A stretch of DNA of 64,000 nucleotides from Saccostrea echinata (Eukaryota): positions 1,984,001-2,048,000 of the forward strand of contig NW_026889756.1 in assembly GCF_033153115.1 (NCBI RefSeq), written 5' to 3'. The position numbers were made by a program, and so were the translations under genes. Shown piece by piece: positions 3,701-32,100 of the stretch (positions within the stretch are counted from its first letter, which is position 1; every line of letters starts with the position of its first letter). The notes under the pieces are model-generated. The model was not told the origin of the DNA, did no database searches, and saw only the letters and a list, made by a program, of their open reading frames with translations.

Positions 3701-5063
3701 AAAAACAAATCCCAGCTGATTCGTAAATGATTTGTAGGTAGAAAAGCATACCAAAAACACTTGTCTAGCAAATTATTATATTAACCGAAATAAATCATGC
3801 AAGATAAATTTGTTGTGTATTCTCACACAATTAACCTGTCAAGTGTACAAAACAAATTCTTTATATTTCAGCCATTTTGGCCCACAGGATCGGGCTGTGC
3901 TCGTGGATTCCTGGGTGGATTCGATGCTGCCTGGATGATTCGGAGCTGGGCTTCGGGGAAAATGACGCCACTCCAGGTCATAGCCGAGAGAGAAAGCATC
4001 TATCAGCTCTTGTCACAAACTACACCAGAAAACCTCAGCAAGAATTACAGTGAATACACAATTGACCCAAACACAAGGTATGAAGGAATATGGAATATCA
4101 TTGATAAAACCAGGCACAGAATTAACTTTACTTTCTTTTTATCAGAATTTTTGATTAGTATTTGATTTATAAAATTCTAAAAAAATTTGAATCCCCCCCC
4201 CCAACTAAAATGTAAAAGAAATTTTCTCCTACACAGTTAAGACAGATACTCTGTTTCTGTTGAATTCAGCTCATCTGCTTTCTTGTATAAAGTAAATGTT
4301 AAGCTGACCCAACGTCCTAGATCCAATGTTAAATTTAATATGCATGAATTGTTTTCTTAATGATCAATACAATGTTGTAAAACTTAAATGTGTACCCAGA
4401 GAAGCCTTTTTTTTTCATGTATTGACACTATACTGTATATCTTGATTATTAGGTACCCTAACCTCAATACAAAGTTACTCCGCATTGAACAAGTGAGACA
4501 TTTATACGACTGTGGAGATCGATCGTATGAAGATGAAATCCTTGATTTACCAGCCAAACGTCCCAGAAGTGGTATATACATGTATTTGTTGACATGAAAG
4601 AAAATTCCCTTTTGTTCTATTTCAGTGCTTTTTTCCCAATTGAATTGGTACCGGACCCATTCCCAATGAGTAGAAAAAAAAAAAATTGCTGTTAAAAATT
4701 TTTTACGACTGGATCCTTTTTGAACTGTCATTTTCAAATTTAAAATTTTTAGGTATGACCATATATCTAGTGAGTAAACTTACAATATAATGGTAAGTTT
4801 ACTCACTAGATATATGGTCATTAATTTTTTTGTATTCCAGAAGAGTTGATAGACAGCTATACCTTGTTACACTGGTGCCAGCGTGTCCTAAATAACAAGT
4901 TCCGTAACGTCCACATCATTGACCTGACCACGTCCTGGAGGAGTGGACTCGCCCTGTGTGCCTTAATACACACCTTTAAACCTAGTCTTATGTAAGTTTA
5001 CAGCCTTTATACACACCTTTAAACCTATTCTTATGTAAGTCTTTCTTCATCTCTTAGATTTTT

Positions 5064-5107
<44 letters not shown>

Positions 5108-29100: not shown

Positions 29101-32100
29101 CTGTTTTTTCCAATACAGATGGACTAAAAGATAGCATCTATATTTATATATTTTAGGCTGTTCTGAACAGTGTGAAGAACATGGAGAATTCAGATTTGAT
29201 GGAACATAATTTTCAGGAGGTTGATGATCGCTTTGTCACAAAAGGAAGGGGTAGTGCAAGAAAGAAAAAACGTGTTCAGCATAGGAATTCATTTGGATCT
29301 GATTCTAGTTTTACAATATCCACTCCAAGTGAATCGTTGCGATCATCCATAAGTTCTCTTGCTGCAGACATTGAAGTGTTGGAGAATGACGCTGAATCTC
29401 CAGACAAAGATATGATTAGAGATTATTGTCTTACACTAAGTCATGCACTTGGAGAAAGCTTTGATGATGATGATGAAAATTTAGGTGATGTTCCTCAAAA
29501 TTATGAGGATACTCCAAGAACAATTGGTCAAGAAGAGTTTAGTCCACGTGAAAACCTAGACAACACTCTGATTGAAGAAGAAGCTGATGTGAATTCTAAT
29601 GGCAGAAAGAGCAGTTTCTATGAAACTCCCAATGCCAGTGTTAGAGAGGAACAATATTTCTCTGTCAGTGATCATGAGTCTAGTCTCAAGTCGAATACAA
29701 CAAGTGCAATATCTAGTCATGGTGTTAGTGATATTTTCAGTAGTGATGCCAGGACTACTAGTACAGACAACAAGATGTCTAGTGCATCAACTCCATCTTC
29801 CATATCAGATAATCAAGAACTAACTGATAAAAACAGTAATGTTGTGATCACTGAACCACGTAAATCAGTGGAAGGGAAACTGAACAGTGATGGAACTCCC
29901 TGGAGAGCACTACCTCCTCTCCCAACACTGGCCAGCACCTCAAACTTTGAAAAGAGTTCAAGTGAAAAATCAAAGGTTGTGAAGAAAGAGAAATCCACCG
30001 ACAAAACAGAGGGGATGAGAAAGCTTCCTGACATCTCTAACCTCAAAAGCAATGTTAACCAGCGCGAGTTTCAGAGTAACTTTATGAGGCAGCATCTGGG
30101 CTCCCCAAGATCTGAACAGCAGGAGATGGCTTCTCCAACAGGGAAGTCTAGTGAGAGTGATTCTGGCAAAAAGACAAAGATCTCTGTGGATCATGCAAAA
30201 CTGAAGTCCATGAGTAGTCTAGAGGACAGTTCCAGTCAGGGTGAGGAGAAATCCAAGAAAAAGATTGCAGTCGACTTGCAACTTCGTGAACGAATCAAGA
30301 CAGAGACTGTGGAAACCAAACCAGGAGTGACTGGAAAAGGCAGCCATATTGATGATATTCCATTTGCAGATGACAGTGATGATGAGCCAGGACAAGAGAA
30401 ATTTTTCACTCCGGCCACGAGTAAAAAGAGGGAACCAGTCAGAGTGGAGGGTGCTGGGAAGGAGGTGAGAAAGAGGCTGCTTCCAATGCCCCCACAGGAA
30501 AGTGTTCAGAACATGCCCAGTATTGACCACATCAAGGAAATCAAGAAGGCTGAAATGGAGAGTGCCAGAGAGAAGGCAAGACAGAGGGCCAGAATGAAGA
30601 GTGATGAAGAACTAGGGATAAAGAATGTAGCATACACACCCAAGGTTAAAGGACTGCTGAAGCGTAGTACCTCAAATACACCAAGTACAAGTGACTTCAT
30701 ATCTGACAGTGATGATCCTAGTAAAGTGTTACACTCCACCCCAGTGGAGAAAGCAGAAGTGCCAAAACCAGAAATCAAATCAAGTGGGAAGACAAAAAAG
30801 AGTAAAAAGAAGAGCATGGACTTAGATTTGACTCTGTCTGAGAAGTCAGATGGGGACACAAGTAAAGAGAAAGTGAAGAAGAAAAAATCCCTGCTTCAAA
30901 TATTGAAGCCTGGGAAGGACAAGTCTCCTAAAGAGCTGAAGGACAAACGATCATCCTCCAATGACACTCTGGAAGAAAAAACTCCAAAGAAGAAGAAGAA
31001 AACTCCAAAGTCTGACAAGAAAAAGAAGAAAATGATGTCAGAATCGGGACTCGAAAAGTTGGATAAGGATCTGAGTGAATTAAATTTACAGGGTATGAAG
31101 GAGAGATTTACTTTAGAGAAGAGACACACACCCACAAGGAGGTATGCTGTAAGGAAGACGATACCACCAAAAGCTGATCGTAAGTAATGATGGGGAATTC
31201 AGACATTTATATGATAGCAAAGAATTCAGTTTTACTTCAAAACTGAAGAATCATATCTGTATTCTGTATTTTTGTTGCTTCAAAATACAATATGCTTTAA
31301 TAATTCCAACTGATGTAATACAATTGGAAGACTATTGTTATAAGGACTTCAAAAGATGTCTAGCTGAGGTGTAATTTACTCAGATTACTCAAGCTTTTGA
31401 ATGCCTAACTTAGGGCCATTTAACAATGTTTTAAAGAAGAATTATAATTACAATGTATTTTTCAGTTGATGAGTTTTCAGACTCAGATGACAGTAAAATG
31501 GACACACTGAAGAAATCAAAGGTAAATGTCGCATTCAATGAATATGACTCCATTTTTCAAAATATGTCACCAAATACATGTACTTGTAAGATCTTTTTAA
31601 TGACTGTCTTTAAGGATCGTCGCACAATGTCTGAGGATGAACTGAACTATCGTATTGCAAAACGTGTACAATCAGCAGCCAGGAAACACATGAAGCAGCA
31701 GGAACAGAAGAGACTGAGAATGGCACAGGAAATCCAACGACAGTTGGAAGAAGTGGATGTCAAACAGAAGGAGCTGGAGGAAAGAGGAGTCATAGTAGAA
31801 CGGGCACTTAGAGGGGAGGGGCAAGGTAAGAGAATGGGGGGACTCAGGGGGGACTGGCAAGGTAAGAAAATGGGGCACTGAGAGGGGAGGGGCAAGGTAA
31901 GAGAAGGGGGCTCTTAGAGGGGAGGGACAAGGTGAGAAAACAGGGGGCTCTTGGAGGGGAGAGGATGGATAAGGATTGTCTTGACATTCATTCCCATCTT
32001 TCAGTTTTGAAAAATGACAGGAGAAGGATAATTTTGAACAATTTTTCAATAAAGTCAGGATGAGTTTTTTTCAGTTTGGTGAAGGCATCCTGGTTAAAGT

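What the first reader, a model, noticed from the sequence alone, without database searches (positions are those of the whole stretch)
4960..31962. Four MICAL splice donors are followed by tandem arrays copied from their own exon end plus donor
Seen: four unrelated repeats share one architecture, with the first unit straddling an exon/intron boundary and copies extending only into the intron. They are at 4992 (43 bp x2), 6377 (41 bp x12), 27215 (about 33 bp, degenerate) and 31826 (35-36 bp x4). That is 4 of 23 donors, and I saw no equivalent array across an acceptor. Inference: either donor regions are hotspots for tandem duplication, or such arrays persist only where the upstream-most donor still wins. 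The result is ladders of decoy or alternative 5' splice sites whose copy number could tune productive splicing versus NMD. This is the best candidate for an under-described phenomenon in this window, but I cannot confirm that it is novel.
Basis: partly seen in the sequence, partly recalled or inferred. Interest (0 to 1): 0.7.

Follow-up and report, generated by a model that had tools for sequence, protein, structure and literature searches.

The report
Oyster exon-edge minisatellites ("mirages")
In a rock oyster's MICAL gene, and in about 4% of the introns sampled elsewhere in its genome, the edge of an exon and its splice signal are copied in tandem into the intron, at both intron ends; the RNA and gene models checked use the signal nearest the exon, so these are likely harmless repeats of a kind known from lancelets, chickens and humans, though they are commoner than a simple neutral model predicts.

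Summary
Observation real: three arrays are clear (4992, 6377, 31826) and one is degenerate (27215, nominal P about 0.003); the window has 25 donors, not 23. The donor-only reading fails. The same MICAL gene has an 86-bp acceptor duplication just upstream of the window, and 1,012 homology-confirmed junctions in 30 dynein and myosin genes carry 24 donor and 17 acceptor arrays. A neutral simulation in which the unit must keep a whole splice signal reproduces that ratio. RNA contigs use the first donor at 27215 and 31826; a RefSeq model uses all four first donors; 17 of 18 downstream copies tested would give premature stops. No sign of regulation. The class is known: amphioxus mirages, chicken exon stuttering, human F7/CBS; this scan noted it before, also in this genome. 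What is new is the count: junction arrays are about 3.1-fold (donors) and 2.4-fold (acceptors) commoner than intron-interior arrays predict, against 0.7-1.5 simulated; they cluster in hot genes (MICAL; myosin V, 12 of 45 donors) and differ in copy number or presence between haplotype-like copies.

The parts
602..37424 (+). MICAL3-like gene, 26 exons inside the window (two more coding exons upstream)
   Evidence: Open over 1,975 codons; 1,973 of 1,974 aligned residues identical to RefSeq P0393; RNA joints for the 3' part
4960..5040 (+). A1: 43-bp duplication; 32 exon bases plus donor; authentic GT 4992, copy GT 5035
   Evidence: using the copy would shift the frame
6346..6833 (+). A2: 41-bp minisatellite, 12 donors (6377 authentic, 6418-6828 copies); 31 exon plus 10 intron bases per unit
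   Evidence: single locus; all 11 copies would give premature stops
27215..27685 (+). A3: authentic donor 27215, decayed G-rich tract, then 33-bp array 27440-27685 likely derived from the exon end; copies lack a consensus donor
   Evidence: RNA contigs of X1 and X5 splice from 27215
31802..31961 (+). A4: 35-36-bp array, donors 31826 (authentic), 31862 (in frame, would add 12 residues), 31897, 31932
   Evidence: joint from the first donor in 3 of 4 runs

Best explanation
These are locally copied tandem repeats whose end unit straddles an exon-intron boundary; they likely arise by short (20-100 bp) duplications joined at 1-3-base microhomologies or short inserts, then likely grow and shrink like any minisatellite, and are likely tolerated because splicing keeps using the exon-proximal site. 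Shown: local origin, both intron ends, copy-number and presence/absence differences between haplotype-like copies, first-donor use at two of four MICAL sites in RNA contigs. Inferred: purifying selection removes units that lie wholly in the exon or cut the splice signal, which explains why copies run only into the intron and why donors (short signal) outnumber acceptors (long signal) about 1.4-1.6 to 1. Also inferred: exon-edge sequence in a minority of hot genes duplicates or expands about 2-3 times more often than intron interior; the cause is unknown.
For: 24 donor and 17 acceptor arrays in 1,012 confirmed junctions. The intron part of the unit is shorter at donors than at acceptors (medians 18 versus 28 bases; P = 0.03). 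Simulation gives a donor:acceptor ratio of about 1.4. Excess over unique intron interior: 3.1x (gene bootstrap 1.7-4.5) and 2.4x (1.1-3.8), with equal detection power, versus 0.86-1.53 and 0.69-1.09 in six simulated settings. Clustering by gene (18 of 30 genes have none; P = 5e-5; donor and acceptor rates correlate, rho 0.72). Myosin V: 10 donor and 5 acceptor arrays of period 20-100 in 45 introns versus 0.9 expected per side. Copies are not being disabled: GT differs in 5.8% versus 11.5% of exon-derived sites, and 18 of 24 donor arrays hold a copy scoring as high as the real site. First donor in RNA and RefSeq. F7 experiments show the most upstream of identical donors wins (PMC1557585).
Against: The sample is dynein and myosin genes only. 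Dropping the three richest genes leaves 2.3x at donors and 1.2x at acceptors. Only 21% of intron sequence could be masked as repeat, so young unmasked insertions may lower the background. The simulation has no array turnover. Presence/absence differences, the least biased class, are too few: 3 clear junction cases versus about 1.2 expected from 6 intronic ones (expectation worked by hand). No RNA evidence at A1 or A2 or at any acceptor array. No clear gene-level correlate (exon GC, GC3, distance to contig end not significant).
Confidence: 0.55

Rival explanations
1. Uniform duplication plus filtering and longer survival: junction arrays are born no more often than others, but one copy is anchored in the exon and shielded from deletion while intron interiors turn over.
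For: Intron turnover is high (0.26 indels per substitution between haplotype-like copies). Gene rates correlate with intronic array density (rho 0.49). The acceptor excess vanishes without three genes.
Against: Simulated anchoring and shielding give at most 1.53x and 1.09x; MICAL (3-4 versus 0.29 expected) and myosin V (11x at donors) exceed their own local background; identity of junction and intronic arrays is similar (medians 0.91 and 0.90).
Confidence: 0.27
2. One reading: donor ladders tune productive splicing versus NMD by copy number.
For: Copies are intact, equal-strength donors; 17 of 18 tested would give premature stops; copy number varies; human CBS and IFI6 use some downstream copies (PMC1557585, Introduction passages).
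Against: Only first-donor joints were listed (table cut); arrays come and go between haplotype-like copies; they sit at slightly stronger, not weaker, donors (6.4 versus 5.8, P = 0.02); the apparent shortage of 3n units proved to be an ascertainment effect.
Confidence: 0.09
3. A donor-specific mutational hotspot (for example U1-linked R-loops or nicks at the 5' splice site).
For: Several units end within about 10 bases of the GT; decayed copies are commoner at donors (excess 41 versus 14 at gapped score 22 or more); myosin V 12 donors versus 5 acceptors.
Against: Acceptor arrays are frequent and co-occur in the same genes; the ratio fits the filter (P = 0.6-1.0); the intron-part length at donors does not differ from simulation (KS P = 0.14); the gapped test scores only the exon part, which is shorter at acceptors.
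Confidence: 0.07
4. Assembly artefact or transposon-borne satellites.
For: 59 of 144 intronic arrays are multi-locus.
Against: Units match their own exon, carry internal variants and recur in second copies of the loci; only 2 of 41 junction arrays hit another block; A2 is single-locus.
Confidence: 0.02

Closest known systems
Amphioxus 'mirage' minisatellites (Adh3, globins BflGb6, BflGb9; PMC3087553, passages incl. most of section 16 read)
   Same: Tandem repeats spanning exon-intron boundaries, at both 5' and 3' ends, haplotype-variable in copy number, no effect on regular splicing by RT-PCR
   Different: Reported gene by gene; the passages give no rate per junction or comparison with intron interior. 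The original Adh3 paper was not read.
Exon stuttering on chicken dot chromosomes (Hron et al. 2026, PMC12954441; abstract, passages, section 7 part 2 and Discussion read; supplements not seen)
   Same: Exon edge plus donor or acceptor copied into the adjacent intron; 3.4% of dot-chromosome introns; median exon part 36 bp, 4 copies; polymorphic; regionally clustered
   Different: Tied there to extreme GC content and said not to be found in other vertebrates except gerbils; the oyster reaches a similar share (41 arrays in 1,012 introns, different screen) with introns of 31% GC and shorter spans
Human F7 IVS7 37-bp VNTR, with CBS, IFI6 (6-16), LMNB2, PDGF (PMC1557585; abstract, Discussion, Introduction passages read)
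   Same: First unit spans the donor; identical downstream pseudo-sites; most upstream site used
   Different: The F7 unit holds only 4 exon bases; CBS and IFI6 use one or two downstream copies; donors only
Variable internal tandem repeats at exon-intron boundaries in human segmental duplications (PMC2812944; passages)
   Same: Boundary repeats of variable copy number
   Different: There they often create new introns or alternative transcripts; none seen here

Membership tests
Mirage / exon-stuttering / F7-type boundary minisatellite | Terminal unit spans an exon-intron boundary and copies lie in the adjacent intron | tested here: met
   A1, A2, A4; A3 only in decayed form
Mirage / exon-stuttering / F7-type boundary minisatellite | Local origin, unit unique to the locus | tested here: met
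   A2 single locus; 39 of 41 sampled junction arrays had no hit in other blocks of the 1.66-Mb sample; A1, A3, A4 not searched genome-wide
Mirage / exon-stuttering / F7-type boundary minisatellite | Splice signal reiterated in the copies | tested here: met
   A1 1 of 1, A2 11 of 11, A4 3 of 3 copies keep GT; A3 copies mostly do not
Mirage / exon-stuttering / F7-type boundary minisatellite | Occurs at both donor and acceptor ends | tested here: met
   24 and 17 of 1,012; MICAL intron upstream of the window
Mirage / exon-stuttering / F7-type boundary minisatellite | Copy number varies between alleles | tested here: inconclusive
   Shown for other genes between haplotype-like copies, which may be alleles or recent duplicates; no second copy of the MICAL arrays was available
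Mirage / exon-stuttering / F7-type boundary minisatellite | Authentic exon-proximal site dominates splicing | tested here: inconclusive
   Met for A3 and A4 in RNA contigs; A1 and A2 only by gene models and homology; rare isoforms not visible
Regulated alternative 5' splice site coupled to NMD | Measurable, regulated use of the downstream site | not testable with these tools
   Only assembled contigs were offered
Transposon-borne satellite | Unit dispersed and embedded in a mobile element | tested here: not met

The most novel reading that the evidence does not exclude
Exon edges are true hotspots of tandem duplication in an AT-rich invertebrate genome: about threefold above intron interior overall and about tenfold in hot genes, at both intron ends. 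Exon stuttering is then a general animal mutation process rather than a quirk of GC-rich bird microchromosomes, and oysters segregate thousands of natural splice-site ladders in which the exon-proximal donor and the exon-proximal (last) acceptor win, a ready-made test of exon definition against 5'-to-3' scanning.
Probability: 0.4. Interest if true: 0.6.

Novelty: new member of a known kind. Interest (0 to 1): 0.36.

Why it matters
The four arrays are ordinary members of a published class. The value lies in the rate: if 2-3% of donors and about 2% of acceptors carry self-derived decoys genome-wide, allele-specific RNA-seq in oysters could test which of several identical splice sites wins, at both intron ends, and whether exon edges mutate differently. 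The arrays also mislead gene prediction (several were called as exons by my own model).

Tried and rejected
RNA over A1 and A2: no contig depth at 5770-6043 or 6318-6865 in 4 runs, so uninformative. No relatives' genomes are held for this window, so no cross-species test of the MICAL arrays. A shortage of units divisible by three (7 of 41) was rejected: in-frame arrays were mis-called as exon and dropped from the confirmed set (many of the unconfirmed ones are 3n). Selective decay of decoy sites: not seen. Compensation for weak donors: opposite sign. Gene-level correlates, 7 tested on 30 genes: only intron GC reached P = 0.014; at junction level, CpG count in donor exon ends (0.95 versus 0.51, P = 0.014, 1 of 7 tests); neither survives correction. 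De novo prediction in 200 kb beside the window gave few genes and was not used for rates. The borderline acceptor at 17427 was rejected. Zhuo et al. 2007 was not found by DOI and not read.

Full report
Setting. The window encodes most of a rock-oyster MICAL3-like gene: the best protein hit is labelled Saccostrea cucullata, and a RefSeq protein labelled S. echinata matches my model at 1,973 of 1,974 aligned residues. The model has 26 exons and 25 donors in the window, one of them GC, and is open for 1,975 codons.

The four arrays. A1 (4960-5040, 43 bp, two copies), A2 (6346-6833, 41 bp, 12 donors) and A4 (31802-31961, 35-36 bp, four donors) begin 32, 31 and 24 bases inside the exon and score far above 947 exon/intron chimeras. 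A3 is a decayed tract behind donor 27215 followed by a 33-bp array at 27440-27685; it resembles the exon end at nominal P about 0.003-0.004, so I count it as probable. Against the genome sample below, 3 or 4 of 25 is high (P = 0.02 or 0.003), and against MICAL's own intron interior 0.29 would be expected.

Which site is used. RNA-like contigs join the first A4 donor to the next exon in 3 of 4 runs, and contigs of X1 and X5 run from the exon before A3 straight into the next exon (at most three samples; joint and piece tables were cut, and contigs drop rare forms). A1 and A2 had no useful cover. The RefSeq model uses all four first donors; two S. cucullata proteins agree at A1 and A2, and a blood-clam protein at A1; these are models, not RNA counts. 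Of 18 downstream copies tested, 17 would give a premature stop; only 31862 adds 12 residues in frame.

Not donor-only. In the first coding intron of the same gene, upstream of the window (L014), a 70-75-bp unit repeats the donor at 8099 thirteen times, and an 86-bp duplication repeats the acceptor at 9736 with 42 exon bases. To test the genome, I fetched 20 dynein and 13 myosin loci, built spliced models and kept junctions that aligned without gaps to a homologue. After dropping three duplicate loci (D132, D81, M36), 1,012 of 1,405 junctions in 30 genes remained. One detector (1 false array in 519 kb of shuffled intron) found 24 donor-straddling, 17 acceptor-straddling and 144 intronic arrays. 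By eye, the 393 unconfirmed junctions add about 18 and 9, giving 42 versus 26 (P = 0.07). Acceptor arrays are mirror images: the last unit straddles the junction, and homology places the real site there; no RNA was checked for these.

Why copies run only into the intron. A duplication of exon end plus intron start leaves the mRNA unchanged if the exon-proximal site is used and the unit holds the whole signal (inference). In line with this, the intron part of the unit is 5 bases or more at donors (median 18) and mostly 17 or more at acceptors (median 28). A simulation with uniform births, this filter and the indel spectrum measured between duplicate loci gives a donor share of about 0.58, which fits both counts.

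An excess remains. For periods 20-100, after masking the 21% of intron sequence that recurs elsewhere in the sample and dropping two doubtful donor arrays, 21 donor and 16 acceptor arrays stand against 6.7 expected per side: 3.1x (gene bootstrap 1.7-4.5) and 2.4x (1.1-3.8), with equal detection power. Six simulated settings gave 0.86-1.53 and 0.69-1.09. The excess appears in dyneins and myosins separately, but it is concentrated: 18 of 30 genes have none, and without the three richest genes it is 2.3x and 1.2x. In a myosin V gene (partly a de novo model), 12 of 45 donors and 5 acceptors carry arrays, with older decayed copies visible at more. Units are somewhat more exon-heavy than simulated (0.59 versus 0.44, P = 0.08). 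I found no convincing sequence correlate. Limits: motor genes only, incomplete masking, no array turnover in the model.

Dynamics. Three pairs of near-identical loci (exon divergence 1.2-2.5%; alleles or recent duplicates) differ at junction arrays in copy number (8 cases, for example 2 versus 7 and 4 versus 11 units) and in presence (4 called, 3 clear on inspection), in 185 intron pairs. In two donor gains read by eye the join shows 2-3 bases of microhomology; A1 and A2 have 4-5 extra bases at the join. This fits slippage or microhomology-mediated break repair (recalled mechanisms, not tested). Decoys show no selective decay.

Comparison. The class is published: amphioxus mirages at both boundaries (PMC3087553), chicken exon stuttering (PMC12954441), human F7, CBS, IFI6, LMNB2 and PDGF (PMC1557585). 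The first two papers came to me as leads from earlier notes of this scan, which lists 54 findings with these words in at least 29 genomes and two in this genome; those notes are unchecked. Ten literature searches (listings only unless stated) showed no mollusc survey and no test of junction excess over intron interior; the library lacks most subscription papers, and the supplements of Hron et al. may hold donor/acceptor counts. PMC10078293 (passages) was not informative.

Verdict. Real, a new member of a known kind, probably neutral. Interest 0.36, carried by the genome-wide rate, the acceptor mirror image and the unexplained exon-edge excess.

Noticed in passing
L014:8052-8984 and about 9647-9777 (just upstream of the window): First coding intron of the same MICAL gene: 13-copy 70-75-bp donor array and an 86-bp acceptor duplication
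   Followed up: yes
L015-L016 (G000:C7 about 2,056,000-2,060,700): Partial copy (75-90% identity) of the MICAL region 27893-29414 about 40 kb downstream of its source, outside the window
   Followed up: partly
L023 (G000:C7 about 2,133,000-2,136,100, minus strand): Second gene with a MICAL-type monooxygenase domain (32-70% identity by exon)
   Followed up: no
window 1362: GC-AG intron in MICAL (donor GCAAGT)
   Followed up: partly
window 9215-10954, minus strand: Intronless 579-codon B-box/coiled-coil/NHL-like ORF nested in a MICAL intron (family named by eye)
   Followed up: no
window 36480-36520: RefSeq P0393 has six more residues than my model near here (alternative acceptor or micro-exon)
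   Followed up: no
L160-L162, L165-L167 and L163-L164, L175-L178 (myosin V, two copies): Extreme hot gene: most 3' introns open with recent or decayed copies of the exon end; one 34-bp donor-derived array has 36 versus 58 units
   Followed up: partly
window 23276-24907, 40832-41963, 49257-49483, 59024-59541: 128-, 146-, 167-, 48- and 61-bp satellite arrays, likely transposon-borne (recalled for oysters), unrelated to the finding
   Followed up: no
window 43072-44647 and 53315-56501, minus strand: Broken LINE-like reverse transcriptase and endonuclease ORFs (named by eye)
   Followed up: no
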